A stretch of DNA of 64,000 nt. Origin: Callorhinchus milii. Taxonomy: Eukaryota. This document shows, one piece after another, positions 12,478 to 60,600 of this stretch. The stretch is taken from contig NW_024704742.1 in the NCBI RefSeq assembly GCF_018977255.1, positions 72,046,001 through 72,110,000 on the forward strand. The letters are read 5' to 3'. Below the pieces are notes generated by a model. It did not search any database. It was not told the origin of the DNA and was given only the letters and a program-made list of their open reading frames with translations. Made by a program: the position numbers and the translations under genes. The number at the start of each line of letters is the position of its first letter. Position 1 is the first letter of the stretch.

Positions 12478-12790
12478 TAAATAATAATCCTTGCATTTGA
12501 TATAGTGCTTTTCATGCCTTCTGGACATCTCAAAATGCTTCACAGAATATACTGTAAAGTGCATTGACCATATATTTGTGGGCGAAACTCGCAGCGAATT
12601 GCGCACAGCAGTGTCCCACAAACAGTCGTGGATTGAAGTGACCAATTTATTATTGGGTTTTTTTCTTGAAGAATTATTATCAGGCAGGTGGAGTAAGGAA
12701 ACTTGCCCAAGGTTTTTGCCCTGCCGGGAATCGAACCCAAGTCTCTCGTTTGTGAGGCGAGTGCTCTAACCACTGAGCTGCAGGACTCCA
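12478..12790 (-). mobile_element. tRNA(Ala)-derived SINE; other copies near 11730+, 18915-, 19580-, 19900+, 24302+, 24620+, 25545+, 28038+, 33245-, 36080-, 38150+, 44498+
   Basis: Shared head, core GGCAAGTTTCCTTACTCCAC and tail ATCAAATGCAAGGATTATT. Confidence 0.85.
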
Positions 12791-13789: not shown

Positions 13790-14889
13790 ACTAGTGGACT
13801 GTCGGCCAGGACACCGGGAAAGAGAGAAATTCCCGGCTCACTATCGTGTCAAGCAGTGTCATAAGATCTCTGAGCAGAATGGACCTGGGTTTAACATCTC
13901 AGCTGAAGGATGGCACCTCTGACAATGCAGTGCTCCACAGTATTGTCTCACAGTGTTGGGCTGCACTATGAGCTCAAAGGTCCAACTTGTGATTCGAACC
14001 CATAACTTTCTGTGCGAGAAGCTAATAGTTCCCTTGAAGGATGTGACATATAAGACTTTTTTGTGTTCAATTGATATTGCTCTTTTCACAGTTGGAATGA
14101 TGGTAAGGAGACGGTGAGGGCTCAAACCTGCACTTGTCAGATGTCAAATAACCAATGAGTGACTGTAATCTTTGTGAGGAAGTAAGCGGGGTCTCCTCAG
14201 TGCTGAACTTGCTTCAAGGTGACATGTTTGGCAAAGGAATATTGGAATTGAGCCACGCCTCTATAATATTCCAGGGCACAGCCCAGCCTGGTTCATCTGC
14301 AGGACTTGCAAGGACAGACCAGTCACTGGGGGCAGGGAATCCGACCAGTCGCTGGGGGCAGGGAATCCTCCCACTCAACTCCTGTTAACCCTGCAAGCCA
14401 AAGCTCCAATGGGTAGGGTGGTCCTAGCTGAACAAGCAGTGGAAACGTTTACCAAGCAGTGATCTCAATGGCAAGTAATGCGGTTTAGTTGGTTTGACTC
14501 CAGCAGTTACCTCAACGCACACTCTGGGGTCCCTAAACCTTGGCTCTTGCCAACCTGTGCCTGATACTCTCCAGAATTAGGTAAGCAGGATGCTTCCCTC
14601 CAGGGAGAGAGTGCATTCCATTCCAACAATCTGTCTCTGGGATACATGGAATTATCAGCTTGGTTTGGAGACTCTTAAGCATGGTGATGAGTTTCCACAT
14701 GTGTCGGACACCCGGCTGACCAAAAAACATTCTCTCACACATTCTTTCTCTCTCACGCACATCCTCTTTCATACTCTCTTTCTTTCACACACATTCTCTC
14801 ATACACACACTCTCTCCCATCTCTCCCTCTCTTTCACACTCTCACTCTCTCTCCCCCTTCACTCTCTCACGTACACTCTCACCCTTTCT

Positions 14890-14921
<32 letters not shown>

Positions 14922-16199
14922 CTCTCTCTGAGCTTGTGGGTTGGGGCTGCCGATTCATGCCTCACTGACCATCCATGTTCTGCCTCACATGACGGTGCAG
15001 GTGTGTGTGGGAACCCCACGTTGTACTCTAATTAGTGGCATAGTGTGAGCTCCCCCGCAGGGCTATTCAGCCCAGCCACTCACTCACATACAGTGCTCAC
15101 TGCCAACACTGACACACTGACACATCCCACAAAAGAGAAGGGCATTCAGGAAGGAGCGAGAGAGAGAGCGAGAGAGACAGACAGCGATAAGTACCTTGAA
15201 CTAGAAAAATACCTAAAAAGCAGTCAGCTACAGGGATAACTGCATCCTTCTTGCTTAAAGGGAACGGAAATGGGACTGAAAGGATTGTTCTTAAGGGAGC
15301 AGCACAGTCGCGATGTACCAAATGGGCTTCTTTCGTGCTGTAACTATCTATGGTTCTATGAGAGAGCGAGATAGAATGAGAGAGAGAGAGAGAGAGAAAG
15401 AAAGAGAGGACATAGAGCGAGAGGAAATCCTAGACTCCTACACTTTTACAGTAGAGGAGACAATTTGGCTCTTGTGCAGATCCCGCTATGACAGAGCCTC
15501 CGCTCACTCTTCATTGCACTACCCTACCTCCTGAGTGTGACTGTGTGTGAGAGAGCGTGTATATGTGAGGGTGTACATGTGTACTTGTGTGACAGAGTGT
15601 GCATCTGTTTGTAGTGCGTGTGTCTGTGTATGTAAGAGTGTATATGTGTGTGTCAATGTGTGTCAGTGTCACTACCAGTGAATGAGTGTATCAGTGTGTG
15701 TGTCAGAGAGTCAGTGAGTGTGTCAGTGTGTGAGTGTCGGTGAGAGTCAGTGAGTGTATCAGTGTGTGTGTCAGTGAGAGTGAGTGTGTGTGTCAGTGAG
15801 AGTGAGTGAGTGTGTCAGTGTGTGAGTCAGTGAGAGTGAGTGAGTGTGTCAGTGTGTGAGTGTCGGTGAGAGTCAGTGAGTGTATCAGTGTGTGTCAGTG
15901 AGAGTGAGTGAGTGTGTCAGTGTGTGTGAGTGTCAGTGAGAGTAAGTGTGTAAAATCCTCTCTAATTTCTCTGTTATTTTGGTGATGGTCTGAAATCAAT
16001 GGTGTGAACTCACACCCAGCAGAGAGAGTTTCTCTTTATTCACATTGTCAAACCTCAAACTAGGACCCCTCTGCCATGGCTCCCCTTCACCTGTGAAGAG
16101 ACAGTGGAGAGAGAGAGAGAAAGCTGTTACTTCTCTCCCACTCTAACCAAAGTCCACCCTGCCGGTGGCAGTCAGAAACACCTCCCATTGATACCCCTT

Positions 16200-16780
16200 T
16201 TGTTTGATCAGCCAGGTATCTGACACATGAGAAACCCATCATCATGTTTAAGAATCTCCAAATCAAACTGAGATTTTCATGTATCCCACCTACACATGGA
16301 AATCCCGGAGATAGATTGTTGGAATGGAATGTGCACTCACTTCTTGGAGGCTTGCATCCTTCTTACTTAATTCAGGAGAGTATTAGGCGCAGGTTGGTAA
16401 GAGCCAAGATTTGGGGGACCATTAGCGTGTGCATTGGGGTAACTGCTGTAGTTTAACCAGCTAAATTTGCGTAGCTTGCCATTGAGTCCACTTCGCAAGC
16501 TTTCCTGCTTGTCCAGCTGGGACCACCCTACCCGTTTGGGCTTTGGCTTGAAGGGTTAAAAGGAGCTGAGTGGGAGGATTCCCTGTCCCCCGTGATTGAT
16601 CTGACCTTCCTGCTGATGAGCCAGGCTGGGTTGTGCTGTCATCAGCAATGCCCTGGAATACTGCGGACCTGCCTGGCTCAAGAACCGGATGACCGAGACC
16701 ACCAAAGTGGGCTGGCTTGATTCTGACGTTTGGTGCCAGGTATGTCACCTTGGAGCCAGTTCAGCCCCGAGGAGACCCCA
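16200..16780 (-). repeat. Unclassified ~600-bp dispersed family; copies near 1040-1490, 14190-14728, 17420-17890, 40220-41095, 43850-44100, 48170-48600, 54850-55020, 60260-60520
   Basis: Shared blocks GTTAACCCTGCAAGCC, CTTGGCTCTTGCCAACCTG and a fixed end GACACCCGGCTGACCAAAA. Confidence 0.85.
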
Positions 16781-19700
16781 CTTACGATGCTTAAGAGTCT
16801 CCAATCCAAGCTGAAAATTCCTTACATTCCACCTACCCATGGAAATTCCACTGCTCCCTCGTATACTCACATGGTTACTGCTGTCTGTTAATATCAGCCT
16901 ATATAAAGGTATCACTGTTAATATCAGCCAACATAGAGGTTAATATCAGACTGTGTGGAGGTATCAGGAACATCAGGGCAGTGTTAACCTGGGAAACTGG
17001 AGCCTGTGTGTGGGGGGGTCAGTGATGTGTCGGCCTGCAGGGAACAGGATAGAAAACCAATGCTCACAGTGGGGAAAACGCTCAATGTGACAGCTCACAG
17101 CCTAATTGGGCTTTGGCCTCTTTGGGATCTTTTGAGAGAATAACTGTTGTTGGTAGTGTTTGTCTGTCAGTGAGGGCTACAGAGAAACCTCAGCCCCGGA
17201 CAGTCTGTACCACACAGCCCAATAAAGGGCTTTCACAACTTGTGTGTCATATTAACTAAACATCTTTTTAGGGAGTGGGCCAGGAGGTGAGAGAGAGAGA
17301 GAGAGAGAGAGAGTGTGAGAAAGAGACAAAGACACATTAATCAGAGCGGCAACCTCAGGAGCTTTGAGAAAGGCAGTGGGGAGGGAGGGAGTGGGGGGGG
17401 AGGGTGAAGGAGAGAGTTTTTGTGGTCAGCCGGGTGTCAGACACAAGCGGAAACCCATGCTTAAGAGTATGCTTAAGAGTATCCAAACCAAGCCGAGATT
17501 TCCATGAATCCCACCTACATATGGAAATCCCAGAGATAAATTGTTGGAATGGAATGCACACTCTCTCCCTGGAGGGACACATCCTGTTTACCTAATTCTG
17601 GAGAGTATTAGGCACAGTTTGGCAAGAGCCAAGGCTTGGAGACCCCAGAGTGTGTGTTGGGGAAACTGCTGGAGTCTAACCAGTTAAAACTACATAGCTT
17701 GCCATTGATATGGCTGTCTGGCAAGCTTTCCTGCTGCTTATCCAGCTGGGACCACCCTACCCATTAGGGCTTTGGGTTGTAGGGTTAACAGGAGCTGAGT
17801 GGGAGGATTCGCTGCCCCCAGTGACTGGTCTGTCCTTCCAAGTCCTGCCTATGAGCCAGGTTGGGCTGGCTTTCCTCAGTAATGCCCTGCATCCTCCCCC
17901 AAAGGAGGATAGTCAGGGAATAGAGAGGGTGAGATGGAAAGAGAGGGAAAGAGTGCAAGAGAAAGAGAGAGAGCAGCTGTTAATTAGTGCCTTCGGTCAG
18001 TGACCTCTCTGGAAAGCTGTGTTCTCTGCCTTTCATTTACACTTTCTCACTGAATAGAAGCAACACATCAGCAAAAGGACAGGTGTCGGTGGAGAAGGGA
18101 GTGACTTTAACACTCCATTATTGTCGATTTGAGAGATTTCCCTTCCTTCCTTACACCATATCAGCCTGGCTCAGCCATTCACACTCACCCCACTGAGGCA
18201 GGAGGTTCTGGGTTTAAGCCCCACGTCGGGGACTCTGAGTTCATAGTCTAGGCTGATGCTCCAGTGCAGTGCTGGCATGGTGTTGCATTGTCAGAGACGA
18301 TGTCCTTCGGATGAAACATTAAACTGAGTTCCATCTGATATTAAACTGAGCTCTCTTTCTTACTCTCTCTCTCTCTCCGCCATTAAACGTTTGTTCAGAT
18401 GGAGGTTAAAGATTCCATGGCGCGTTGAATAAGAGAAGGAAGTGTCCTGGCCAACAATCCTCGGGATAAAATTGAACATACACTTCATGGAATGAAGTTT
18501 GCTGTTTGAGGTGACATTGCTTCGTCCAAATCAGTTGCTATGCTCATCTACAAAATACTCAATCACTGCACTTTACAGCACATCCTGTGGAGCAGGACAT
18601 CCTATCAGATATCCTGCTGACATGAAAGGCACTTGATCAGATGTAAGGATTATTGTTATTAATAACACCCTCCCCCCGTGCCCCCAATCTCACACCTGCT
18701 CCCTAATGTTTTGGTCAGCCCGTGTTTGACACACACGGAAACCCGTCCTTAACAGTCTCCAAACCAGACTGAGAATTCCACATATGTATATCATCTACAG
18801 CAGTACGGATAAATTGGGGGAAGAGCAGGGAATGGGATTGGAATAGAGAGCTCCAGTGGGGGAGCGAGCACCAGCATAGATACAATGGGGAGAGAGCAGG
18901 AGATGGGATTATAATAATAAATAATAATAATAATCTTTGCATTTTATATAGTGCCTTATCACATCTTTGAGATGTCTCAAAGTACTTCACATACAATTAC
19001 AATATACTGTACAATGAATTGACTGTATACTTTTTGTGGGTAAAACGCGGCAGTCAATTGCACACACCAATGTCCCACAAACAGTCGTGGATTGAGTAAC
19101 AAAATTATTATTTTTTAAGGGATTATTGCACCAGGAAAAGTGATTCACCAATCAACTAACAACTGGGTTCCAACTTACTAGTGGGTAAACAGAGGCATGT
19201 GGAGTAAAGAAACTTATCCAATGTTTCGCCCTGCCTGGGAATCAAACCTAGTTTCCTCTTGCTTGCAACGTGAAGACTCTAACCACTAAACTACAGGACA
19301 CCACATGATTAGAGTAGAGAGCTCCAGTGGGAGTGAGCAGAGCCATCACATTCACAGAGCTTTGCTGCACTATCAAGGACAGGTTTTCACTGAGAATAGT
19401 GACAGGAATTTAGAGAGGGTCCCTAACATCACATCTCAACCCACCATCGCCTGCCGCTGCTTAATTAAATCAATTTCCTGAGATTGGTCCAGTCTGATCA
19501 ATTAGGAGATAGCGCTGACAAAGAGAATGAATCAGGTTTTCCTCAATTCACTCAGCACTTCCCTCCACTCTTCTCTCAATAATCCTTCCTTGCATTTCAT
19601 ATAGCGTTTTTCACGTCTTCTAGATGTCTCAAAGTGCTTCACAGAATATACTGTTAAGTGAATTGACTGTATATTTGTGGGCAAAATGCAGCAACCAATT

Positions 19701-24132: not shown

Positions 24133-26384
24133 CTGCTTCCTTCTCCATTTTCAGGCAGTGCCTGAAGACTGTACCTATGGTCCCCTACCCCCTTTCCCCG
24201 GCTCGGCATCGTGTTCCGCCACTGTAAAGTGCTATGGGATACTACTGGGGTGAAGGGTGCTATATAAATGCAAGCTGTTGTTGTAATAGCAGCTTAATGT
24301 TGGAGTCCTATAGCTCAGTGGTTAGAACACTCACCTCTCAAGCGAGAAACCTGGGTTTGATTCCCAGCAGGGCAAAACCTTGGGCAAGTTTCCTTACTCC
24401 ACACACCTGATAATAATCCCTCAAGAAAAAAAAACAATAATAAATTGGTCACTTCAATCCACGTCTGTTTGTGGGACATAGCTGTGCGTAATTGGCTGCC
24501 GCATTTCACCCATAAATATACAGTCAATTCACTTTACAGTTTATTCTGTGAAGTGCTTTGAGACGTCTAGAAGATGTGAAAAGCGCTATATCACATGCAA
24601 TGATTATCATTATTATTAATGGTTACAGCACCCGCCTCACAAGCGAGAGGACCCGGAATCGATTCCCAGGCAGGGCGAAACCTTAGGCAAGTTTCCTTAT
24701 TCCACACGACTCTGTTTACTTAGCAGTAAGTAGGAACCTGGCTCTTTGATGATTGGCTGATTGCATTCCTTGGATAATAATTTCTCAAAAAAAATACAGT
24801 CACACAATCCACATTGGTGGGACACTACTGTGCACATTTGGCTACCAGGTTTTGCACATAAGATATACAGTCAATTCACTTTATAGTATATTCTGTGAAG
24901 TACTTTGAGACACCTCAACATGGTAAGGCACTATATCAAATGCAAGGATTATTATTAAGGATTATTTTAGTCCATTTTTATTTTATTCTATTTAGCCCTC
25001 CTTTTTATTTTAGTCCATTTAGCCCTCCTCAGTACCCTAGAGTCTGTCACTTTCATCTCTGAGACAGAAAGGTATCTTTCACATTGATCAGATGTCTCCT
25101 GATGCCTTTCACATCAGGAGGATAGCTCAAAGTGCTTCATAGGATTCACTGTAAAGTGTAGTGACTATGTGTTTTGTAGGCAACACAGCAGCCAATTTGC
25201 GCACAGCAATATCCAACACACAGCTGTGAAGTGAGTGAGTGATCTCATTTGGGGGATTGTCGTCCAAGACACCGGGAGAGAGAAACTCCCTTTTCTTTTC
25301 AAGTAGTGCCACAGGATCTTTAACGTCCATTTGAATAGGCACAGGCAGGGGCTCAGTTTAAAGTTTTGTCTGAAGGACGGCGTCTCTGACAATGCAGCAC
25401 TCCCCCCAGCACTGCACTGGAGCATCAGCCTGAACTGTGAGCTCAGAGTACCCAACATGGGACTGAACTAACAATCTAAAAAAACGAATCAAGGAAAGTT
25501 TGTTAATGGGTAGATCACGTACAGGACTGGGGAGAGTTGTTTTGTGGAGTCCTGTGGTTTAGTGGAAAGAGCACTCACCTCTCAAGCGAGAGGACCAGGA
25601 TTCGACTCCTGGGCGGGAACGAAACGTTAGGCAAGTTTCCTTAATTCACACATCCCTGTTTACCTAACAGTAAGTAGGAACCTGATTGTTTGATGATTGC
25701 CAGATCTCTTTTCTGCAGGATTAAGGTAATAATCCCTTAAAACAAAAAATCCATTTTAAAAATGATAATTTAGTCATTCAATCCATGTATGTTACATACA
25801 TTAGAATACATTAGAACACCTACGCTATTTGCCTCAACAACTCCTTGTGTTTCCACAAGTAGAAACACAAGGAGTTTATCTATCCTATATAGTTTAAAGT
25901 TATTATTATAACTTTAAACTATATAGTTGTCTATCCTATCAAAACCTTCTGTGGGACTGTTTGGCTGCCGCATTTCGCCCAGAAAATATATGGTCAATCT
26001 ACTTTACAGTATATCCTGTGAAGCTTTTTGAGACGTCTCGAAGACATGATAAGGCACTTTATCAAATGAAAGGGTTAGTATTATTTTTATCTTGCAACTC
26101 GGAGGCAGAATGACTGACCTGGCTCAGAAGTCAGCACTCTCAGTGCTGAATACACACTGTGCGAGGACCGAGGGTAAAGCAAGGCTGTACATGAGTGGAG
26201 AGGGTTAGTGCTGGCGCTGGGTGTGTGTCAGTCAGTGAATCACTTGCAGTACCACTTCCCGCTGATAGATGTCAGCATCTGTCTTACTCTGGGCGTTTCA
26301 CCCACAAATTACAGTCAGTTCACTTTACAGCATATCCTGTGAAGCGCTTTGAGACGTCTTGAAGCCATGATAAGGCACTATAGC

Positions 26385-30750: not shown

Positions 30751-33700
30751 GTACTGTGTCTGTTTTTTGTCCGTCTGTGTCTGACACACACGGAAACCCA
30801 TCACCGTGCTTAAGAGTCTCCAAACCAAACTGAGAGTTATGTGGAGAGACTAGACAGGATGAAATTTTTCTCCTTAGAGCAAAGAAGGATGAGGGGAGAT
30901 TTGATAGAGTAGAAAAGGAGAAACTGTTTCTTCTGGTGGGTACGTTGGTAACCAGAAGATACAGTTTCCTTACTCTGCACTTCTAATAATAATCCCTCAA
31001 AAAAAGCAATAATAAATTGGTCATTTTCAATCCACGACTGTTTGTGGGACACTGCTGTGTGCAATTGGCTGCCGTATTTCACCCACAAATATACGGTCAA
31101 TTCACTTTAAAGCATATTCTGTGAAGCTCTTTGAAACGTCTAGAAGACGTGAAAAGCGCTATATCAATACACTTGAAAAGGATAAATTTGTAGGGCTATG
31201 GGTTAGGAGCGGGAGAGTGGGACTAATAATAATCCTTGCATTTCGCCTTATCACGTCTCCAAGTGGTCTTCTTCTGCGCTTTAAGATTCTATGATTCTAT
31301 CCCACCTACACATGGAAATCCCAGAGATAGATGCTGGAATGAAATGTGCACTCTCTCCCTGGAGGGATGCATCCTGCTTACATAATTCCTGAAAGTATTA
31401 GGCACAGACTGGCAAGGGCCAAGGCTTGGGGACCCGAGAATGGGCATTGTGGAGTCCTGTAGCCCCTACCTACCTGCCTGTACTCTCCGTTCCTCTGGCT
31501 CCGGTCTGCTCCACATCCCCCGCCCCAACCGCCCTACCATCGGTGGCCGGGCCTTCAGCCTCTCAGCCCTGAGGCTCTGGAACTCCATCCCCCAGTGCCT
31601 TCGCCGCCTCCTCCCTTTCCTCCTTCAAGGCCGGTCTCAAGACCTTTCTCTTTGACCGTGCCTTCAGCTCCCCTCTCGACTCTCTACCCCCTCCTCGCTC
31701 CCTCCCTTCCCTCCCCTCACCCTGACCACTTCCCCCCTGTTCGGTCCTGACCCAACTGTACAGCGCCTTGGGACGTCCTCCCGACGTGGAATCTTGTTGT
31801 TGTTGCTGTTGTTGGTTAGAGCACTCACCTTGCAAACGAGAGGACCTGGGTTTGATTCTTGGCAGGGCAAAATGTTGGGCAAGTTTCCTTACTCCACACG
31901 CCTCTGTTTACCTAGCAGTAAATAGGAACCCAGTTGTTAGTCAATTGGTGGATCGTTTTTCCGTGGGTAATAATTCCTTCAAGATAAATAAAAATAATTT
32001 GATCCCTCAATCCACGACTGTTTGTGGAACACTGATGTGCACATTGGCTGCCACGTTTCGCACACAAAAGATAATCATTTCACTTTACAGAATATTCTGT
32101 AAATGGAGTCCTGTAGCTCAGTGGTTAGAGCACTCGCTTTGCAAGCGAGAGACCTGAGTTCACTTCCAGGCATGTCAGGGCGAAACCTTGGGCAAGTTTC
32201 CTTACTCCACACACAGCCTAATAATAATCCCTCCAAAACCAAAAACAATAATAAATTGGTCATTTTCAATCTACGACTGTTTGTGGGACATTGCTGTGCG
32301 CAATTGGCTGCCGCGTTCGCCCACAAATATACAGTCAATTCACTTTACAGTGTGTTCTGTGAAGCGCTTTGGGACGTCCTCCCGACGTGAAAAGCGCTAT
32401 ATCAAATGCAAGGATTATTATTATTATTATTATTCTGTGAAACGTTTTGAGAGGTCTTGAAGACATGATATGGCGGCATATCAAATGCAGGGATTATTAT
32501 TATATAACTACTGGAGTCTAACCAACTGAAACCGCAAAGGTTGCCATTGAGAACACTGTCTCGTAAGCTTTCCCACTGCTTGTCCGTTAGGGCTTTGGCT
32601 TCCAGGGTTAACAGGAGTTGAGTCTAATTCACTGTATTATCTGTTTCCCTGCAGTGATTACAGAGAGCAGCGATGACTCAGCGGATCCCGATGAAAATGG
32701 GAAGGTACTGACACACCCCGAGGGAGAGGGCTTCTCACGAGGGACTTTTTTTTATTGTCAGGTGTTTGACAGAAACAGGAACCCATCACTGTGATCAGCC
32801 TTGTGTCTGACACACACAAAAACCCATTACCCTGGGGGCGGGGGAGGCCTTGGGAGGAGGGGTAAGGACTGGGAAGGTGGAGGGGAGGGATGGAATGGCT
32901 CGGGAATGGGAGGTGGGTTGATGTTCAATACACATTTACACGTGTATAGCACCTTCGATGTCGGGAGATCACCACAAGGTACTGGAATCCTGGCTGGTGC
33001 TGATGGAGGTGTGGCTTGATGTTACAGGATGAGAGGGAGAAGGACGAGGTACAGAAACAGCTGGAGGACATGGAAAAAGGTGAGAGGTCACTTTGTGATC
33101 GCCAGCTATAACTACTCCTTCACTGCCCACTTGTTTGCTGGGTTTAACAGGTAGTGGGGTTTGCCTACAAACACACAGCAACTGCACTTAACATTGGTTC
33201 AGCATCATAATATTCTGTACATTAAGAATATTAAATAATAATATTAATCCTTGCATTTGATGTAACGTCTTATCACTTGATTATTGAGGTGACTCAAAGC
33301 GCGTCACAGAATATATTGTAAAGTGAATTGACTGTACATTTTGTGGGCTAAATGCAGCAGCCAATTGTGCACAGCAGTGTTCCACAAATAGTCATGGATT
33401 GAGTGACCAATTTTTATTTTGAGGGATTATTACTCCCAGAAAGCAATCTGCTAATCGACTAACAGTCAGGTTCCTACTTACTGCTAGCTAAACAGAGGAA
33501 AGCGTGCTAACCACAACCCTACGGAACTTGATAAAGTACCTTTCACGTCGGGAGGACATCTGAAAGAGCTTCACATGATTTTACTATGACTGTGACTGTG
33601 TCTTTTGTGGGCAAAGACAGTAACATGCCACGAACAGCTATAAAGTGAATGGCTAACTTTATCTAGGGGATTGTTGACCAGGACCGGGAGAGAGAAACTC

Positions 33701-36700: not shown

Positions 36701-39700
36701 GCAGTTGAGCCTTCAGCCTCTCTGTCCCCACCCTCTGGAACTCCATCCCACAGTCCCTTCGCCTCGCTCGCTCCCTTGCCTCCATCAAGGCACACCTCAT
36801 TAGCTCCTGTCAGCGTCTCCACACCTCAGACTCTGACAGCATCACCATCCAAGGATGCACAACAACAACAACAAGATTACATTTGTATAGCGCCTTTCAC
36901 GTCAGGAGGAAGGCACACTCCACTTCACTGAGCCAGTTTGTAACCTTGATGTCTTGTTTGACCCTCAACTATCCTTTCTACCCCACATCCATGCCATGAC
37001 CCGCTCTGCCTTCCCCCACCTCTGCAATAGTGCTCGGCTCCACCTCTGCCTCACCCCTCAGCCTGCCAAAACCCTTGTACGTACATCTAGGCTTGACTAT
37101 GCCAACTCCCGGCCTTCCCAACTCTTCCCTCCACAAGCTGAGGTTCATTCAGAACTCTGCAGCTCATGTCCTCTCCCACACCAGGCTCCATGACTCTATC
37201 ATGCCCACCCTCGCCCGGCTCCACTGGCTCCCCATCCACCAGAGGAAAGCATTAAAATCTCTCGTCTTCATCTTCAAAGCCCTCCACGGCTGTGTTCCTT
37301 CCTTCCTCTGTGATCTGCTAACGCCAAATCAACCTGTCTGTTCCCACCGCTCAGCAGGCTTTCTCCACATCCCCCGCCCGGTCCACCCCAGCATCAGCTG
37401 TCGGGCCTTCAGCCTCTCTGCCCCCACCCTTTGGAACTCCATCCCACAATCCCTTTGCCTTGCTCCCTCCCTTGCTTCCTTCAAGGCCCATTTCAAGATC
37501 CTCCTCTTTGACCATACCTTCGGTCACCCTCCTACCCCTACCCTCCCTGCCCTCTACCCCTCCTGATCCCAAACCCCTGCTCAGGTCCAAATCTCTGTCT
37601 GTCCAGCTCCTTGGGACGTAAAGGGTGCTATACACATGTAATTTGTTGTTGTTTTTATTGTGTTATAGCCATTACACACGGTGTGTTATTATATAATATA
37701 CAATGTTATAGCCAGTAACACACAGCGACAATGAGGATTAATCTGTCACCATTTCCCAGGTGAACAAGGAGAATAAGAAGCTGGTACGGCTGAGTCGAGC
37801 GTTACAGCCTATGTGGGACTCTCTCCCAGATGACATTACCAAGCTCGGGGCTGAGGACAAGGAGACCCCCAACCCCACCTGCAACCCAGAGTACCAATAC
37901 CAGCTCCAGGTCAAAGGTGAGAGCAGCCCCATGCTGGTGATCTCTGTGTGAGTTACGGTTGTGTGCAGGAGGGTGGGTGGGTGGATGTGTGCACGCACGA
38001 GCGAGCGAGTGAGTGTGGCAGAAGACAGACCCTTCAGACTACCGGACAAGGATGGGCTAAGGTCCCAGATTTCTCCTAGTCTTAGCTCGTGGAGCATTTT
38101 GTTTGCAGGTTTACAGGGGAAGTTGCAGAAACTTCCACAATTCAGTTCTTAGCATAGTGGTTAGAGCACTCACCTTGCAAGCGAGAGGACAGGTGTGCGA
38201 TTCCCGGGCAGGGTGAAACATTAGGCAAATTTCCTTACTCCACACGCCACTGTTTACCTAACAGTAAGTAGGAACCTGCTTGTTAATCGATGGGTGGGCT
38301 GCTTTCTGGGGGTAATACTCCCTCCAAAAAATAAATAAACAAAATAATAATAATAATTTATTCACTCAATCCAAGACTGTTTGTGGGACACTGCTGTGCT
38401 GAAATTGATGCCACATTTCGCCCACAAAATACACGTTCACTACAGTTTACTGTATATTCTGTGAAATGTTTTGAGACGTCTCAACGATGTTATAAGGCGC
38501 TATATCAAATGCAAGGATTATTATACTATTGTACGTTTAATTTTTAAGAACTGTGGAAAAATAGCTCCCAAATTTAGCCTTGAATTAGGAATTCCCACAA
38601 TCCTGGGTCATAGCAAATGTTATGGCAAATAGGTCCCGTAGCTGAGACTAGGCGGAATTTCCGACCTGCTGTTCATCATATTCAATGTGCTAGTGACACC
38701 TGCTGGTGGAATGTCAGTGGTCCGTGCATCTTTCATTGTATTGTTTATTTGCTATGAACAGAGAGACAGAGACAGAGGACCCTTACGTTGTGTTTACTGA
38801 GATCTAAACACAACGAGAATAATGCTTAGACAAGAGTGAGTTACAAGGTGGAATCTAATCCTGGGTTCCAGGGGGATTATATATAGAATAACACATCCCA
38901 GGAGTGAGGTACAGGCTAGAATCTAAGGGAGTGGGGTTTATATATAGAATAACACATCTCGAGAGTGAGGTATATTGATGGTGCCACTACAATGTAAACC
39001 TGCCCCGGATTGTCAGTATATACCAACCCTCAACAACAACTTGCATTTATATAGCAGCCTTCACACGGGGCAGCGTCTCGGAGCGCTTGTCCCCCAAGAC
39101 AGGTCCTGTTGCTGCTTAGACTAATGGAGATATCTCTCTCTGGTCAGACCTTCAGGAGAGGATTACACTGCTGCTGGAGGAGAGGAGGGAGCTGAGCAGC
39201 TCGCTGGAGACCCTGCAAGCTCGATTCACCCAACTGACAGAAGAGGTGAGTCACCCCCAGGCTGTTTCGTCCAGCGGAGTCCTGTCACAGTGGTCACTGA
39301 AACCAACTGACTCCTTCCCCTCACTCCCACTGTATACACTCCCAATGGCCCAAACCCCTTCCTGTCCTCTAATATAATCCAGTTGCGCTGGGGATTTATC
39401 AGCCAGGACACCGTGAGAAACTCCCTTTTATTTTTGAAATACTATTGTGATACCAATAAAAACAATTTATACTTGCATTGTGCCGTTTACTTAGGGCAAT
39501 GTCTCAGAGCACTTCACAGCGGCGGGGTGGATGCTGAGTGTGGGGGAGGGCATCATCGGCACAGCCGAAAAGGTGCGTCCTAAGACAACTTGAAAAGGGG
39601 CGAGGTGGAGTGTGAGGCAATAAGGGGGAGGCCTAATTGTGAGATCAGGAAATGGGCAGCAAACCCAGGTTAGCTGAGCAGAGCAGGTAAGTGGAGAGGA

Positions 39701-42700
39701 GTGGGTAGGACATCAGAGAGGTGTGAGGGTGTGCAATGATTTATAGGTAAAGGCAAACAGTCGAGAGCTTGGCTTTATCACCTCTTTCCAAAGGATGTCA
39801 CCTCTGATAGTTCAGCGCTCCACTACCATAGCCCTGGAGAGGTAGCCTGGACTGTGAGCTCCAAGTCCTCAATGTGGGGCTTGAACCCACAAGGTTCTGA
39901 CCCAAAGAGGAGAGTGCAAGCGGCTGATCCAGGTAATGTCTGCAGTTTAGCAGAGAGGTGGGTGTGATTTGAGAGGTAAACACTGGGGGTAAACGTTGGG
40001 GGTAAACACTGGGGGTAAATATTGAGGCTAAATACCGAGAGTAACCCACTTGCCTTGTGATGCTGGTTGTAGGTGGCGAGAGAGCGGACAGAGAAGATTG
40101 CGCTGCAGAAAGTGCAGGAGAGGCAGAGCAAGGCTCTCAAACGCATCAATACAGGTGAGTACTGGTTTCCTGAGGGGCAAGGAGAGGGGTCTAGCCTGGC
40201 CTCTCTTCTCTACGTATTTATTTGATCAGCCAGGTGTCTGCCACATGTGGAAACCTATCTCCAGGCTTAAGAATATCCAAACCAATCTAAGAATTCCACG
40301 CATCCCACCTACACATGGAAATCCCAGAGATAGATTGTTGGAATGGAATGTGCGCTCTCTCCCTGGATTCCAGAGAGTTTAAGGCGCAGGTTGGCAAGAG
40401 CCTAGGCGTGGGGAGCCCAGTGTGTGCGTTGGGGTAACTGTTGCAGTCTAACCAGCTAAAACTGTATTGTTTGCCATTGAGATCACTGTCTGGTCAGCTT
40501 TCCCACTGCTTGTCCAGATCGGACCACCCTACCTGTTAAGGCTTTGGCTTGCAGGGTTAACAGGAACTGATAGCAAATCCAGGTTAGCTGAGCAGCCAAT
40601 ACTGCAGGTTTCTGAGCTACCAAGTTGTTTTTTGCATACTTGGTTGCGAACTTCAACGTTGCCTCCAGATCTGAGCTGGTTCCTGAGCCCCGCGCCACGA
40701 CACTGGATCCCCTTGCATTTCCGTCCATCTATGCACAGACAGCAACGGCCCAGTCAGTTGCGCACAAGGTGCTCATCAGACTCTTTGGCAGTTGACATGC
40801 ACAAAAAACCTTCCCAGAATCCTGCTGGCTCAGAAGCATCATGGACATTTGAGGCAATTTCTCACAGATCTGGTTCAACATCTTCATCAGGATCGAGAGG
40901 GAATCAATGGGAAAATCAACAAGAGTCCCTGTCCCCAGTGACTGTCTTGCCGATGAGCCAGGCTGGCTGTGCTGTCATCAGCAGTGCCCTGTAATACTGA
41001 GGACCCGCCTGGGTCAGGCACTGGACACAGATACTGTCGCAGAAGGCTGGCCAGATTCCAACATTCTGTTGCCAAACATGTCACCTTGGAGCCAGTCTCT
41101 TAGGAGCTCTCCAAAGAGACCCTGCTAAACTCCACCCCCACGCACGTTATTAGGTTACTAGCTGTACCCATTGCGGCTTTGCTTGCAACCAAATGATCCA
41201 ATGCGGAATGTAGATTGACACACAAACAGACAGACAGACATTTCATCTTTATCTATATTCTTCGAGGAGGACTGCTGTCAGAGGATTCCTGTGGGAGAAC
41301 TCAGTGGGGGGACTCGTCGCTTTAAAAATGTGATTTTGTTGTTGGCATAGCTTCGTCTGTATTCTTTATTTTGCTCCCGCCGCTTGGCTACGTACATGCT
41401 CTGTGACGCAGGAAGCCACAGCGCCATATTGTCGTTTTATTAGTATAGATAAATAAAGATGGCAGATCTTTGAATCCCACACCCCTGCCATTTCCCCCAT
41501 ACCCAGTGAGTTGGTAACTAAAGCACATCAATTTAAGATCATCACCAATCCTGACTGGAGAGTTTTGAACTGGAGCGGTCTAGACGGGGGTGGGGGGAAG
41601 AGTAATGGTCCTGGTGTGGCTGATGCTGACAGTCATTCTCCACCCTTTCTGGCTGTAGTGTCGGTGCTGGTCACTCAGGATTACCAGGAGCTGCAGCAGC
41701 AGCTCGACCTAGAACAGGAGCTCAGGCAGCAGGCAGAAACCTACGCCCACCAGGTATATCCCCTCTGCTCTGCCCCGGCCCATAGAGCCCTGCCCCAAAG
41801 CCCAGCCCCATCCCCACTCCCCCACCCCCACAGCCCATCCCCACCCACACTACCCCAACCCCACAGCTCAGCCCCACCCCCACTCCCCCACCCCACAGCC
41901 CACCCCCACTCCCCCAACCCCACAGCACAGCCCACACAGTCCCACTCCAACCAGCCCAACTCCACGTTGCACTGCCTCGCCCACACAGCTGCCACCCCCC
42001 CACCCACCCAAACTGCTGAACTGTTCCGCCCTGTGTCTGTCTGTAGGTCTGTCTATCTGACTGGTGTGACCAACAGTTTGTCTGTGTGACTGACTGTGTG
42101 GCTGACTGTCTATGTATGCGTTTGACTGTGTGTGACTTTGTGTCTGTCTGTCTGTCTGTCTGCGTGACAGCCTAACTGTCTGCCTGGCTGTCTGGCTGTG
42201 TGACTGCCTGACTTTCTTCCTGACTGTCTGGGTGACCGCCTGACTGATTCGCTGGGTGTGTGTGTGAGTGCCTGACTGACTGTCTGTCTGTCTGTCTGTC
42301 TGTCTGTGTGACTGCTTGACTGTCTGCATGACTGGCTATCTGTGTGATTGTGTGCCTGTCTGTCTGCACGATGTGAATGTGTGACTCTCTGTCTGTGTGT
42401 GTGCCTGTATGACTGTGTGCCTCACTGTCTGCGGATGTGACTGAATGTGTGACTGTGCTTGTCCTGTGCTGGTATGACTATGCCTAACTGTGTGCTGGTG
42501 TGCCTGATTGTGTACCTGTGTGACTGTGTGCCTGACGGTGTGACTGACTGTGTGCTGGTGCGGGAGCCCAGATGCTGGTAAGGCAGCGGGAGGCGAGCCG
42601 GCAGAGTGTAATTCTGTTACAGAATGTACTGCCAAGCGAGCAACTGCTCACAGCCCTGGAGGAGGTGGCCTCCCTCAACCGCTGCCTGGAGCAGGAGAGA

Positions 42701-45700
42701 CACCAGCACCAGCAGCTGGTAAGACACTACCCAACCCCCCTAACCCCAAGAGCTTGGGGCGAGGCAGAGCGGACTTGGGGCAGAGACAGGCAGGGGCAGA
42801 GGGCAGGCAGGGGCAGAGGGGAGGCAGGGGCAGAGGGCAGGCAGGGGCAGAGGGCAGGCAGGGGCAGAGGGCAGGCAGGGGCAGAGGTGGAACATAGGCA
42901 GGATTTGAAGTTTGGGACGGCGACAGAGTTCGGATTGGGGTGGGGATGGAGGCAGAGGACACAGCCTGAGATTGAAGGGGGGTAAATTCAGAATGAATCT
43001 GTGCAAACAGTATTTCCGTGAGCGAGTAGTAAACCTGTGGAACAGGTTGGTGGGGTTGGGTAGGGGCCATGGTGGGGTTGAGGCGGGGATCATGATTGGG
43101 TTGGGGTTGGGGTGGGGGTCATGATGGGGTTGGGATAGGTGTCATGATGGGGTTGGGGCGGGGGTCATGATTGGGTTGGGGCAAGGGTCATGGTGAGGTT
43201 GGGGTGGGAGTCATGGTGGTGTTGGGGGAGTCATGGTGGGGTTGGGGTGGGAGTCATGGTGGTGTTGGGGGTGGGTCATGATGGTGTTGGGGTGGGGCTA
43301 ATGGTGGTGTTGGGGTGGGGGTCATGGTGGTGTTGGGGTGGGGCTCATGGTAGGGTTGGGGTGGGGCTCATGGTGGGGTTGGGGTGGGAGTCATGGTGGG
43401 AGTCATGGTGGTGTTGGGGGGGGAGTCATGGTGGGGTTGGGGTGGGGCTCATGGTGGGGGTGGGGCTCATGGTGGGGTTGGGGTATGGCTCATGGCGGTG
43501 TTGGGGTGGGGCTCATGGTGGGGTTGGGGTGGGGCTCATGGCGGTGTTGGGGCGGGGGTCATGGTGGGGTTGGGGTATGGCTCATGGCGGTGTTGGGGCG
43601 GGGGTCATGGTGGGGTTGGGGCAGGACCATGGTGGGGCAGGAGGATAATGATATCCTCATTATGCAGGTACAGGAGCTGAAGCACAGGCTGGAGGGGAGC
43701 CAGGCGGAGAGCGAGGTGGCCAGGCTGACATTGGCCCTGAGTATAGCTGACGAGCAGAAGGAGGATGTGGAGAGCAGGCTGGCTGTCGCAGAGACCAAGA
43801 GCCTTGAGCTGGAGACAGAAGGTCAGTGTCTTGTCACCGGGGGGGCAGTTGGTCTCCTCGGAGCTGAACTGGCTCCAAGGTGACATGGCAATGGAATGTC
43901 GGAATTGAGCTCTAGTCCGGTCACAGAGGCAGGTAAGCAGGTCCGCAGTATTCCAGGGTGCTGCTGATGACAGCTCAGCACAGCCTGGATCATCGGCAGT
44001 CACTGGGGCAGGGAATCCTCCCACTTAGCTCCTGTTAACCCTACAAGCCATGCCTTAACAGGTGGGATGGTCGTAGCTGGACAAGCAGCGGGAAAGCTCC
44101 TGAAAGCAAGAATTGAGAAAAATCCTTCAATCACAGTGGTAATCTGGAAGCCAGTTTTCCACTTTTCTTGAAAAGAAACTGGCTGTTAAGCGCTCCGAGA
44201 AGCAACCCTGTGTGAACTGCATAAGGTGTTGTGGTTTAAATAAACACCCGATTTAACAATTCTTCAAAAATCTGTGCCCTACAACCCTCCCTGGTCGCAG
44301 TCCAGGTTGATGCTCCAGCATGGTGCTGAGCGGTGGTTTCCGTTGTCGGAGGTGCCATCCTTTGGATGAGATATTAAACCGAGATCCTGTCTGTGCTTGT
44401 TCAGGTGGGCGTTAAAGATCTCGCTATAGGCAAAGAGAAAGGAATTTCTCTCCCTCGATGTCTTGGCCAACAATCCCCCAGATAAAATTGGTCATTATGG
44501 AGTCCCGTAGTGTAGTGGTTAGCATGCTCACCTCACAAGCAAGAGGACCCGGGTTTGATTCCCTGGCAGGGCGAAACCTTAGGCAAGTTTCCCTACTCCA
44601 CATACCTCTGTTTACCTAGGAACCCGGTTGTTAGTCGATTTGCGGATCGCTTTCAGGCGATAATAATTCCTAAAAAAAAAATTGGTCATTCAATCACGAC
44701 TGATTGTGGGACACTGCCATATTTCACCCACAAAATTCACAGTCACTACACTTTACAGTATATTTTGTGAAGCGCTTTGAGATGTCTCAACAATGTGATA
44801 AGGATCTATATCAAATGCAAGGATTATTAATTATTATTATTAATAATCACTCTGATCGAATCTCTTTAGTTCAGACACTTCGGATGAAGCTGGAGGCTGC
44901 TGACAACACAACCCATGAGGAGCAACAGGAAGGGGCTCCCCCACCCCCTCCCCCCCCTCCACCCCCTCCCCCACCCCCGCCTGCACACCCACCAGCATCC
45001 AGAGTGCCGATCGAGTAAGTGAAACTTCAGCACTCAGCAACGGATGTGTTTAACCCCTGAGTGAACAACACCCAATTTGATTGAACCTGCTCAAACTCAA
45101 GCAACCACATCAGGGACTCTGAGCTCTCAATCCAGGCTGATGCTCCAGGCAGGTGCTGGAGGGAGATAGCGGCAAATTTTCAGAGACGCCACCCTTCAGA
45201 TGAGATATTAAACTTAGGTCCCATCTCTGCGTGTTCAGGTGGATGTTAAACATCCTGCGCGATATTGGAATAGAGAAGGGAGTTCCTCTCTCCCGGTATC
45301 CTGGCCAACAATTCCCCAGGTTAATTGTTCATTCACGACAAAGCTGTTTGTGGGACATCGGTCTGCAATTTGCCTGCCAAGTTCTCCTATAGACACACAG
45401 TCACTACACTTTACAGTAAATCCTGTGAAGTGCTTTGGTGTCAGAGACGCAAGACTATAACCTTCCTGAAGATTCGGTGTTTTTCGTGTGTTAGAGCAGG
45501 GAGTTTCTCCAGGATTCTGGGCCAATATTCCCATTGTCCAGACACAGCCCAGGAACAGAGGTGATAGTGTGTTAATGTGAGTGTGATCCAATCCATCGCA
45601 ACATTGATCCTGCCTCCCCCCCACCCCCCCCCCCCCCCCACACACACACGCAACCAATTTCAGCCTGTGGAGCCAGTATCTATATGATTTTGTGTAAATC

Positions 45701-57612: not shown

Positions 57613-60600
57613 GTGAGTGTGATAACAAAAATAAATTACATTTGTATAGTACCCTTCACATCGGAAAGACGTCTCAGGGCATTGGACAATCAGAGGTTTT
57701 GGTTCCAAGCTGGGAGTTGGGGTTAGAGGAGAGGAGAGCAGGGTGTGTGGGGTTGGGAGGGTGACCGAAGGCATGGTCGATGAGGAAAGGCTCAGATGGG
57801 CCTTGAAGGAGACAAGGTAGAGGGTGAGGCGGAGGGATTGAGGGATAGAGTTCCAGAGTGTGGGGGCAAAGATGCTGAAAGCCCAACCACCAATGGTGGG
57901 ATGGGAAGTGCGGGGGACCTGAATCAGGCCAAGCGGAGGGAGTGGACAGGCTGATATGGGGTTATGAGGTAGGAGAGTTAGGGGGAGCAAGACCATGGAG
58001 GGCCTTGAAGGTAAGAACAAGGGTTTTGTACTTGATTCTCTGAGGAATAGAGAGCCAGTGAAGCCGGGCAAGAATTAGGGTGATAGGTTCCCGGAGCCTG
58101 GTGCGGGAGAGGACACGAGCTGCAGAGTTCTGAATAATCTGCAGTTTGTGGAGGGAAGAATTGGGAAGTCCAGTGAGCAGACAGTTGGTGTAATCAAGCA
58201 TGGATCAGGGTCTCGACAGCCTGTGGTGAGATGCGATGGCGGAGGTAGACAATGTTGCAGAGATGAGGAAAGTTGGAACGGGTCATGGCACAAATGTGGG
58301 GTTTGACAGTGCGTATGTGTGTGTGACTGTGTGTGTGACAGTGTCTGTATGTGTCTGTGTGTGTGTGACAGGCCACAGACCAGCATGTGAATCCAGAACT
58401 GTGGAGGAGTAAAGGGATTTGGATGTCCACGTACACAAATCACTAAAAACAAGCTCACAGGTACAAAACTTAAGGCTAATAGGATGTTGGCCTTTATTTC
58501 ACAGGGGCCTGAATATAAATGAGAACAAATTGTGCTTCAACTATATAGAGCCTTAGTCAGACCCTATCTGGAGTACTGAGTTCAGTTTTGGGCAGTTTTC
58601 CTCTGGTGGAGGAGTCTAGTACAAGGGACATCATCTTAAAATTAGAGTTAAGCTTCAGGAGTGAAATCAATAGGCAGTTTTTCACCCAAAGTGTAGTGAA
58701 AATCTGGAACTCTCTTCCCCAAAAGGTTGTGGATGCTGGATCAATTCATATTTTCAAGACTGAGGTGGATAGATTTTTGTTAGATCAGGATGTCAAACAA
58801 TATGGGGCAAAGGCGTGTAAATGGAGTTGAGGTACAGGTCAGCCATGATGTAGTAAAATGGTGCAACAGGCTGAAGGAGCTGAATGTCCTACTCCTGCTC
58901 CTATGTTTCCACGTGTGTGTGTGTGAGACACAGCCAGACAGAGTGATCAGTACGTGAGTCATTGACAGGGAAGGAATGTGTGTGTGTCTGTGTGCGAGTG
59001 ACACTCTGTGTGTGTCTCTCTGTGTCAGGCTCACACAGTGAGTGACGGACACTCTCTGTGTCTTTGTATGTCAGGGCCACACAGGGACTAACACCAACTC
59101 TCTCTGTGTCAGGGCCACACGGCGCTCCACATGGCGGCCCTGCACAGCCGGCTGGACTCGCTGCGGGTACTGGTGGAGGAGTTTAACATGGACGTGAACC
59201 AGGCCAGTGTTGAGGGCTGGCGGCCGATACACATGGTCATCAGCAAAGGCCATCAGATCCGGGGTCTCCAGTGCCTCAAGTACCTGCTCAGCCACGGCGC
59301 CCAAACCGATGTGTAGGTCACAGGTTACCGTGAGGTGGGGGGGTGCACAGGGACAGCCCAATCTCTAGTCACCCCTGTCTGACATTGAATCCTGGACGAG
59401 AGACAACTTTCTTCAGCTCAATGTGCACAAAACTGAGGCCCTCCTGATTGGCTCACGTCAGCGCCTCCGCACCTCAGGTGCTGACAGCATCAGCATCCAA
59501 GGCTGCACTCTCCACCTCTCAAAGCCATCAGGAACCTCGGGGTTCTGTTCGACCCTGAGCTGTCCTTCCTTCCTCATATCTGCGCCACAACTGGCACCGC
59601 CTTCCATCACCTCCGAAACATTGCCAGACTACGGCACTACCTCACCCCTCACGCTGCTGAAACTCTGGTCCATGCCTTTATCACCTCAAGGCTGGACTAT
59701 GGGAACTCTCTCCTCGCCTGCCTTCCCGGCACCTCCCTCCACACTGCAGGTCATTCAGAACTCTGCAGCTCGTGTACTCTCCCGCACCAGGCTTCGCGAC
59801 CACATCACTCCCACCCTCGCTCGCCTCCACTGGCTCCCCATCCCCCAGAGGATCGAATTCAAGATCCTCACCCTCACCTACAAGGCCATTCACGGCCTCG
59901 CTCCCTCCTACCTCTCCGACCTACTAACCCCCTACTTACCTGCCGGTACCCTCCGTTCCTCAAGCTCCGGTCTGCTCCACATCCCCCGCCCTAACCGCCC
60001 TACCATCGGTGGCCGGGCCTTCAGCCTCTCAGCCCTGAGGCTCTGGAACTCCATCCCCCAGTGCCTTCGCCGCCTCCTCCCTTTCCTCCTTCAAGGCTGG
60101 TTTCAAGACCTTTCTCTTTGACCGTGCCTTCAGCTCCCCTCTCAACTCTCTACCCCCTCCTCGCTCCCTCCCCTAGTTAGTGGAGGCTCAAACCAACACT
60201 TGTCAAATGACCAGCTAGTGTCTATCTTCCTGTGTCTATCTTCCTCCGTTCCATGTTCCATGGCTCCAAGGTGACATGGAACATGGAACGGATTTTTAAA
60301 TCGAGCCCACCCTCTGTGACGGTCTCTAGTCCAGTTCCTGAGCCAGGCGGGTCCGCAGTATTCCGGGGCACTGCTGATGACAGCACAGCCCAGCCTGGCT
60401 CATTGGCAGGACCTGGAAGGGCAGACCAGTCACTGGGGGCAAGGAATCCTCCCACTCAGCTCCTGTTAATCCTGCAAGCCAAAGCCCTAATGGGTAGGGT
60501 GGTCCTAGCAGGACAAGTGCGGTTTTGGATCCTCACCAGGTGAATGGTAGGTAATGGTTGGAAGCATTGACTGGGGGCAGGGTCTTTGACGCTGACGACT

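What the first reader, a model, noticed from the sequence alone, without database searches (positions are those of the whole stretch)
40220..41095. AARS2 mRNA fragment captured in the middle of a dispersed repeat
Seen: 354 bp (40571-40924) encoding ~100 aa resembling the AARS2 C-terminal (C-Ala) region plus a short UTR, uninterrupted by introns, with one nonsense change, no poly(A) and no TSD. It replaces ~9 bp of the host repeat and lies in the repeat's inferred sense orientation. Inference: double template switching during reverse transcription, or RNA-templated break repair. If other copies carry it, the family is a gene-capturing vehicle.
Basis: partly seen in the sequence, partly recalled or inferred. 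Interest (0 to 1): 0.7.

Follow-up and report, generated by a model that had tools for sequence, protein, structure and literature searches.

The report
Spliced AARS2 fragment patching a repeat
A 320-base intron-free piece of this fish's own mitochondrial alanyl-tRNA synthetase message sits, once, inside an old repeat next to a 24-base patch copied from nearby DNA; it looks like a scar of the already known repair of a chromosome break with reverse-transcribed RNA, not a gene-carrying mobile element.

Summary
The insert is real: 350 bp (40571-40920) in a dispersed repeat, with 5 host bases lost and no poly(A) or TSD. It is processed AARS2 mRNA. An RNA-like contig matches 40592-40915 in one gapless piece (91%), while DNA contigs of the source gene break off at about 40783 and 40894, so two introns are missing. 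One CAG-to-TAG change is confirmed. Three corrections. (1) There is no UTR: the fragment ends about five codons before the stop. (2) The supposed UTR (40572-40595) matches, 23 of 24, a site 914 bp upstream in the same intron. (3) No second filled copy was seen: in one DNA run depth over the insert equals locus plus source gene, against 242 empty-site contigs. All three joins show imperfect microhomology. Best reading (0.70): repair of a break in a resident repeat, copying local DNA plus AARS2 mRNA or cDNA (class 2 templated insertion). Template switching during the repeat's own retrotransposition remains possible (0.17), because the age test was inconclusive and the repeat is unclassified. The species is probably the elephant shark. 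The scan noted a similar case (POLR2A in a MIR) in another genome.

The parts
40217..40570 (-). Left arm of the host dispersed repeat (unclassified, unit about 560-600 bp); the T-run end at 40217 suggests the element's 3' end on the minus strand
   Evidence: blastn and alignment to other window copies, 83-88% identity; end contexts
40561..40569 (+). Host tip CAGGAACTG, 8 of 9 alike to 39646-39654 just before the local template, one base out of register (possible priming microhomology)
   Evidence: such a match occurs at 186 of 128,010 positions in the window; noticed after the fact
40571..40571 (.). One base not explained by host, local template or mRNA
40572..40595 (+).
   Evidence: longest match in 300 shuffles: 18; at least 8 differences from the AARS2 codons over 40595-40576; only these two copies within 5 mismatches in the window
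39658..39681 (+). Likely template of the patch, 914 bp upstream, in the body of another old repeat (39460-39940) in the preceding intron of the same host gene
40596..40782 (-). AARS2 last coding exon, cut about five codons before the stop
   Evidence: DNA contig X1 record 3 and X5 record 23 end at 40784 with about 100-150 unlike (intron) letters; P0002 tail
40729..40731 (-). Nonsense codon TAG (source CAG, Gln)
   Evidence: (table 3, place 40731)
40783..40893 (-). AARS2 penultimate exon, 111 nt, complete
   Evidence: X5 record 24 spans 40783-40894 with unlike letters on both sides; X1 record 4 stops at 40783 with 237 unlike letters
40894..40915 (-). 22 nt of the preceding AARS2 exon
   Evidence: RNA-like contigs X14 record 16 and X9 record 29 run on to 40915; human donor at c.2682
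40916..40920 (-). 5 nt probably still AARS2 (Val-Asp codons, then one codon missing); inferred from the protein only
40921..41096 (-). Right arm of the host repeat; its first 9 nt read Gly-Thr-Leu on the minus strand, the same tripeptide that lies one codon upstream in AARS2 (possible imperfect microhomology)
   Evidence: GTL occurs once in the 871 aa of P0002

Best explanation
A germline double-strand break in an already resident copy of the repeat, inside an intron, was repaired by templated synthesis. Five host bases were lost. The gap was filled by a tract copied from two templates: 24 nt from chromosomal DNA 0.9 kb to the left, and about 320 nt from spliced AARS2 mRNA. Each change of template used a short imperfect microhomology. 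Two directions fit equally well. Either the left end primed on local DNA, then on the mRNA itself (reverse transcription at the break), then annealed to the right end; or the right end primed on a ready-made AARS2 cDNA, switched to the resected left arm and realigned at its tip. The copy has decayed neutrally since. SHOWN: RNA origin, truncation at both ends, 5-bp loss, no TSD or poly(A), the local 24-nt match, one filled copy in the data seen, neutral pattern of change. INFERRED: the break, the cis origin of the patch, the microhomology use at the two mRNA joins (source letters at the joins were not displayed), and the enzyme (LINE reverse transcriptase or a repair polymerase).
For: Spliced origin. 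X14 record 16 matches 40592-40915 in one piece (28 differences, 0 gaps) and X9 record 28 bridges 40783, while DNA contigs stop at 40783/4 (X1, X5) and 40894 (X5) with unlike letters beyond. No TPRT marks. No 3' end of the message. Local patch 23 of 24, against a maximum of 18 in 300 shuffles, with only two copies within 5 mismatches in 64 kb. Imperfect microhomology at all three joins. Return to the host only 5 bp further on, which is automatic for a break but needs a precise jump back for a reverse transcriptase on element RNA (inference). Single copy: each listed difference is carried by one contig, and depth 13.8 = 7.0 (locus) + 6.8 (source exon) in X1. Neutral decay: insert-only changes are 8 non-synonymous to 3 synonymous (p 0.71 against neutral), the gene's own 2 to 7 (p 0.0005). 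The host looks older on two measures: 54 of 506 sites differ from the family majority against 12 of 270 insert-only sites (p 0.003; p 0.046 without CpG sites), and terminal branches are 0.106 and 0.124 in star-like trees. The anatomy matches class 2 TSIPs (PMC5110952) and RT-product-mediated break repair (PMC4516963).
Against: The age argument is not secure. Counting only changes private to this host copy gives 21 of 506 (4.2%), the same as the insert (p 0.85). The private fraction (39%) is below star-tree simulations (45-81%), so subfamilies or alignment bias may inflate the host's age. The source gene's synonymous change since the split (7 changes, 9-12% of synonymous sites) exceeds the insert's 4% (p 0.03-0.14), so the insert may be older than 4% suggests. 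In this repeat-rich DNA 56 of 172 stretches of 350 nt have some 23-of-24 match within 2 kb. Most isolated cases are multi-copy motifs (10 of the 14 recounted have 8-22 copies), but without a genome I could not test whether the patch belongs to a family with closer copies elsewhere. The patch, the mRNA and the host all lie in the orientation expected if all three templates were sense RNAs (1 in 4 by chance; the sense of both repeats is itself inferred). Microhomology is predicted by the rival too.
Confidence: 0.7

Rival explanations
1. Template switching during the host element's own reverse transcription: the enzyme left the element RNA, copied a short piece of another repeat RNA (or local DNA at the target), then AARS2 mRNA, then returned, and the chimera inserted once.
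For: All pieces are co-oriented with the host's inferred sense. Joins show microsimilarity, as in LTR-mediated retrocopies, which also lack poly(A) and TSD and can be 3'-truncated (PMC5131818 passages). Private change in the host copy (4.2%) equals the insert's.
Against: It needs three jumps and a return 5 nt further on. The patch's only close copy in the window flanks this very locus. The host shows no LTR or retroelement protein marks: Pfam 0 hits in 12 frames of two copies; no AATAAA in the two empty full-length copies and no terminal inverted word over 4 nt. Majority-based and tree-based ages make the host about 2.5 times older.
Confidence: 0.17
2. An ordinary LINE-made retrocopy (internally primed, or once tailed) landed in the repeat, and a later small deletion with a templated patch removed its 3' end, tail and one TSD.
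For: Retrocopies are common in cartilaginous fishes (14,081 counted in bioRxiv 10.64898/2026.06.26.734816, passage). A locally templated patch is a known scar of alternative end joining on its own (PMC7407515 passages).
Against: The host is intact up to 5 bp from the other join, so a later deletion would have had to end almost exactly at the old insertion point. No TSD half remains.
Confidence: 0.08
3. DNA-level copying from an older processed AARS2 pseudogene elsewhere in the genome.
For: It would also give an intron-free piece without tail or TSD.
Against: No third AARS2-like contig at 80% likeness or more shows over the insert in X1. Insert-only change is low (4%), leaving little time for an intermediate.
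Confidence: 0.03
4. The repeat family is a gene-capturing vehicle and has spread this fragment.
For: None found beyond the single filled copy.
Against: 7 of 7 aligned window copies are empty. In X1, 242 contigs have the empty-site loose end at 40570, against one locus contig across the insert. Contigs drop rare forms, and other genes' fragments in other copies were not searched.
Confidence: 0.02

Closest known systems
Class 2 templated sequence insertions / TSIPs (Onozawa and Aplan, PMC5110952; parts 1-3 of 4 read)
   Same: Patch from a distant transcribed locus, spliced cDNAs among the donors; no TSD, poly(A) or signal; microdeletion, microhomology and an untemplated base; size in the 73-414 bp range reported for experimental cases; germline.
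   Different: Old (about 4% decayed) and apparently fixed rather than polymorphic; in a cartilaginous fish; joined to a second patch from nearby DNA, whereas that review describes the experimental inserts as not derived from nearby sequence.
[quoted passage not shown]
   Same: Partial intron-skipping mRNA pieces without poly(A), short and sometimes mismatched microhomologies, several templates in series at one break; both ready-made cDNA and direct reverse transcription are left open there too.
   Different: Natural break; the second template here is local DNA; the enzyme source is unknown.
Synthesis-dependent MMEJ / polymerase theta templated insertions and MM-BIR (PMC7407515; passages read)
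   Same: [quoted passage not shown]
   Different: The template is 0.9 kb away, and most of the tract comes from an mRNA in trans.
LTR-mediated retroposition (Tan et al., PMC5131818; passages read)
   Same: mRNA piece between two halves of one repeat, microsimilarity at the joins, no tail or TSD.
   Different: The host is not shown to be an LTR element; only 5 bp replaced; a patch matches the flank of the insertion site; no further copies.
RNA-templated DSB repair giving whole-intron deletions (Jalan et al., PMC12065846; abstract and outline only)
   Same: Spliced mRNA used as a repair template.
   Different: That pathway repairs the transcript's own gene; here the RNA comes from another locus.
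Canonical L1 processed pseudogenes and L1/mRNA chimeras (PMC11702581; bioRxiv 10.1101/2025.02.02.635956; passages read)
   Same: Intron-free gene copy next to repeat sequence.
   Different: No poly(A), TSD or 3' end of the message, and the mRNA piece is internal to the repeat, not at its 5' end.

Membership tests
Processed (RNA-derived) gene copy | Crosses exon junctions without introns | tested here: met
   junction near 40783 shown in own-species DNA (X1) and organism B (X5); junction near 40894 shown in organism B DNA only, crossed by 22 nt in RNA-like contigs X9 and X14
Class 2 TSI / RMDR | No TSD, no poly(A) tail or signal | tested here: met
Class 2 TSI / RMDR | Microdeletion at the acceptor site | tested here: met
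   5 bp lost against empty-site copies (tables 5c and 7)
Class 2 TSI / RMDR | Microhomology or untemplated bases at the joins | tested here: inconclusive
   8 of 9 at host/patch plus one unexplained base; the two mRNA joins are inferred from C. milii protein codons, as the source letters were not displayed
Class 2 TSI / RMDR | Donor locus intact | tested here: met
   intron-bearing source contigs and spliced contigs present
Class 2 TSI / RMDR | Acceptor (host copy) existed before the insertion | tested here: inconclusive
   10.7% against 4.4% by majority, 0.11-0.12 by tree, but 4.2% by private changes; no orthologous empty site available
TSIP (polymorphism) | Segregating present/absent | tested here: inconclusive
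   4 samples of one study hold 0.73-0.95 of the words; locus depth 7.0 against 5.4-6.8 for the single-copy gene in X1 suggests homozygosity; X1 may be the assembly's source
Canonical LINE (TPRT) processed pseudogene | 3' end of the mRNA with poly(A) and flanking TSD | tested here: not met
LTR-mediated retrocopy | Flanking halves belong to an LTR retrotransposon | tested here: inconclusive
   no Pfam hit in 12 frames of 2 copies, no Rfam match, no AATAAA in the two empty full-length copies; no repeat library available
Gene-capturing transposon (Pack-type, Helitron-type) | Captured piece amplified in several element copies | tested here: not met
   0 of 7 aligned window copies; one locus contig against 242 empty-site contigs in X1
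Gene-capturing transposon (Pack-type, Helitron-type) | Terminal inverted repeats or TSD of a DNA transposon | tested here: not met
   best terminal inverted word 4 nt and best flank direct word 4-5 nt in 3 of 3 full-length copies; Helitron-type ends were not tested

The most novel reading that the evidence does not exclude
One continuous repair tract, primed at the broken chromosome end, copied chromosomal DNA 0.9 kb away and then switched directly onto an unrelated spliced mRNA in trans (reverse transcription at the break by a repair polymerase or a LINE enzyme) before rejoining. It would be a fixed germline fossil of DNA-to-RNA template switching in a cartilaginous fish, and such composite scars could be a countable class among fish retrocopies.
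Probability: 0.2. Interest if true: 0.55.

Novelty: new member of a known kind. Interest (0 to 1): 0.3.

Why it matters
It is a clean natural example, outside mammals, of a tail-less retrocopy made at a chromosome break, with a local patch that ties the synthesis to the break site. One decayed, single-copy intronic fragment has no evident function. Its value is as a lead: the share of fish retrocopies made by break repair rather than by target-primed insertion could be counted with this signature. It does not show a new gene-capturing element.

Tried and rejected
No whole genome is held for this window, so the genome-wide junction search was replaced by contigs of public runs. One search listed no RNA holder; this is no evidence either way, and two RNA-like runs did carry the source message at 91% likeness when laid. 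Organism B (X5) showed the source gene and the empty repeat family but no contig of the filled locus; at depth about 4 this does not show absence. The idea that the pyrimidine-rich 40894-40915 is an intron acceptor was rejected: RNA-like contigs run through it to 40915 and it encodes FPIDSLS like the C. milii protein. 'Short UTR' was rejected. Classifying the host repeat failed: Pfam 0 of 12 frames; Rfam nothing on it at gathering score and only chance-level hits at E up to 5 over 14100-18000; no hammerhead core in the host arms, TIR or TSD. The element 39460-39940 gave no Pfam hit in 6 frames. Naming the surrounding gene failed: one weak Pfam hit in 4 exon-like frames and generic coiled-coil look-alikes in the Atlas. 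Dating by relative divergence gave mixed results. A paper search for human AARS2 exon boundaries gave only c.2682+5; the other boundary rests on contigs. A look-up of earlier scan notes by sequence found nothing.

Full report
OBSERVATION. The minus-strand frame 40926-40615 gives 104 residues with one TAG. It matches three human mitochondrial AlaRS C-terminal chains in the PDB at E 6e-27 to 3e-26 and cytoplasmic AlaRS only at 2e-08. The best of 14 database hits is Callorhinchus milii AARS2, 86% identical. The flanks 40217-40570 and 40921-41096 belong to a dispersed repeat with at least 14 further copies or fragments in the window. I gave 7 copies that span the site to the aligner and all 7 lack the insert. 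No genome is held. Four samples of one study hold 0.73-0.95 of the sampled words of 40530-40970.

SPLICED ORIGIN. I laid 4 of the 24 listed runs on 40530-40970 at 80% likeness (32 of 3,028 pieces were displayed). In X1 one contig is the locus itself (40541-40970, no difference; it may be the assembly's source). Two others are the source gene: 40592-40784 with 99 unlike letters on the intron side, and 40783-40877 with 237 unlike letters beyond 40783. In X14 (RNA by guess) one 710-nt contig matches 40592-40915 in a single piece with 28 differences and no gap, and X9 has a contig bridging 40783. In organism B (X5) an exon-sized piece 40783-40894 has unlike letters on both sides. So two introns are missing. 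The second junction is shown at DNA level in organism B only. It agrees with a human donor at c.2682 (PMC10015028, passage); mapping that onto the alignment uses the recalled 985-aa length of human AARS2. With the listed differences applied, the own-species gene equals C. milii protein P0002 at all but two of residues 5-104, both near contig ends where differences are not listed. The species is therefore probably the elephant shark (inference).

CORRECTED ANATOMY. Empty-site contigs read GTGGG and then AAGAATCCC/AAGAGTCCC, which resumes at 40921, so the insert is 40571-40920 (350 bp) and 5 host bases are lost. There is no TSD, poly(A) or signal. The C. milii frame continues 14 residues past the human end, to ...LDAQETP, so the fragment holds no stop and no UTR. 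Source contigs in three runs stop matching at 40592. Over 40595-40576 the insert needs at least 8 changes to fit the AARS2 codons, but 40572-40595 differs at 1 of 24 from 39658-39681, 914 bp upstream in the same orientation. The four unlisted differences in X1 record 3 equal the four forced by the protein (codons 103, 106, 108, 111), which places one of them at 40595, where the local copy matches. The AARS2 part is thus about 40596-40915, perhaps to 40920 with one codon missing.

HOW STRONG IS THE PATCH? Shuffled inserts reached at most 18 nt in 300 trials. Real DNA is a harsher control: 56 of 172 stretches of 350 nt have a 23-of-24 match within 2 kb. Of 335 such pairs 15 were isolated. Of the 14 I recounted (I dropped one near-duplicate), 10 are motifs with 8-22 copies, two are tandem neighbours under 100 bp apart, one is a two-copy pair 559 bp apart, and one is this case. 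The 24-mer has only these two copies within 5 mismatches in the window. It sits exactly between the host and the mRNA, and the host tip matches 8 of 9 bases just before the local copy (186 of 128,010 positions do so; noticed after the fact). I could not test for closer copies elsewhere in the genome. At the patch/mRNA join the protein implies a short match (sense TGC.CA). At the right join the host's first 9 nt encode Gly-Thr-Leu, which lies one codon upstream in AARS2 and occurs once in 871 residues. Both are inferred from codons, not from source letters.

COPY NUMBER. In X1, 1,964 contigs were laid, almost all on the flanks (summed depth up to 122,000 on the left, up to 670 on the right). 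Over the insert the depth is 13.8 = 7.0 + 6.8, then 12.4 = 7.0 + 5.4, then 7, and every listed difference is carried by one contig. 242 contigs show the empty-site loose end at 40570. No second filled copy is seen. Contigs drop rare forms, and capture of other genes by other copies was not examined.

DECAY AND AGE. Over the 270 bases covered by both source genes, 11 changes are insert-only (8 non-synonymous, 3 synonymous; neutral, p 0.71), 9 are own-gene-only (2 and 7; p 0.0005), 10 listed are B-only, and one site differs in all three. The host copy differs from the majority of its window relatives at 54 of 506 sites, against 12 of 270 for the insert (p 0.003; p 0.046 without CpG sites). Its terminal branches are 0.106 and 0.124 in poorly resolved, star-like trees. 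Against this, only 21 of the 54 changes are private (4.2%, p 0.85), fewer than star simulations give, and the gene's synonymous change is 9-12% against the insert's 4% (p 0.03-0.14). The host leans older, but this is not settled.

MECHANISM. The best reading (0.70) is break repair in a resident repeat copy by templated synthesis from local DNA and from AARS2 mRNA or cDNA. It explains at once the 5-bp loss, the missing tail and TSD, the truncation at both ends, the patch from the flank and the single copy. Whether reverse transcription happened at the break or earlier cannot be told from sequence. Template switching during the host's own reverse transcription (0.17) predicts the co-orientation and the microhomology, but needs three jumps and does not explain why the patch matches the flank. 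A trimmed ordinary retrocopy (0.08), copying from an older pseudogene (0.03) and an amplifying vehicle (0.02) fit worse. The host repeat is unclassified.

KNOWN KINDS. It works like, and meets the testable features of, class 2 templated sequence insertions (PMC5110952, parts 1-3 of 4 read) and RMDR in mouse zygotes, where intron-skipping, tail-less pieces and serial templates were seen (PMC4516963, passages). Flank-templated patches are a known mark of synthesis-dependent end joining (PMC7407515, passages), and templated insertions at L1-related sites are mentioned in PMC11702581 (passages). LTR-mediated retroposition (PMC5131818, passages) and L1/mRNA chimeras (bioRxiv 10.1101/2025.02.02.635956, passages) are the models for the rival. 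Cis RNA-templated repair (PMC12065846, abstract and outline) differs in donor. That polymerase theta can reverse-transcribe is recalled, not read here. Retrocopies are not rare in cartilaginous fishes (bioRxiv 10.64898/2026.06.26.734816, passages); its supplements are closed and could list this locus. I found no paper on this locus in the listings (top 15-25 rows of each; none of the 15 listed mentions AARS2); subscription journals are not searched. An earlier scan note describes a similar tail-less POLR2A piece in a MIR in another genome; I did not check it and it is not counted as support.

VERDICT. Real, RNA-derived and single-copy: a new member of a known kind, with one unreported detail, the local patch. 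Interest 0.3.

Noticed in passing
window 39120-42720, + strand (exon-like frames 39120-39227, 40073-40156, 41655-41753, 42572-42718; more near 43750 and 48050): The insert lies in an intron of a coiled-coil protein gene, antisense to it. The exons resemble shootin-1 from memory; Pfam and the Atlas did not confirm a name.
   Followed up: partly
window 16199-16850: One copy of the host repeat restarts after its end: 16787-16850 repeats the unit from about 45 bp inside its left end, a head-to-tail arrangement that may bear on the family's class or be a local duplication.
   Followed up: partly
window 40228-40250 and the same place in other copies: The repeat's left end holds short palindromes (GTGTC-N-GACAC in several copies, and CACATGTG) next to a T-run of variable length, with no TSD.
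   Followed up: no
window 39460-39940: Old repeat with a tRNA-like head at the right and a LINE-like tail at the left (both recalled resemblances). Its middle, which holds the patch template, has no other copy in the window.
   Followed up: partly
AARS2 source gene (proteins P0002-P0004): The C. milii AARS2 models run 14 residues past the C-terminus of human and basking-shark AARS2, and the gene's synonymous sites have changed 2-3 times faster than the pseudogene fragment; unexplained.
   Followed up: partly
window 5786-5848, 12716-12787, 24304-24375, 32107-32178, 44501-44574: Five Rfam tRNA matches, probably heads of an abundant tRNA-derived SINE family (families D7, D8, D11 and D14-D16).
   Followed up: no
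window 8182-8982 and 59374-60172: Two inverted copies about 800 bp long and 95% alike, a much younger repeat family than the host.
   Followed up: no
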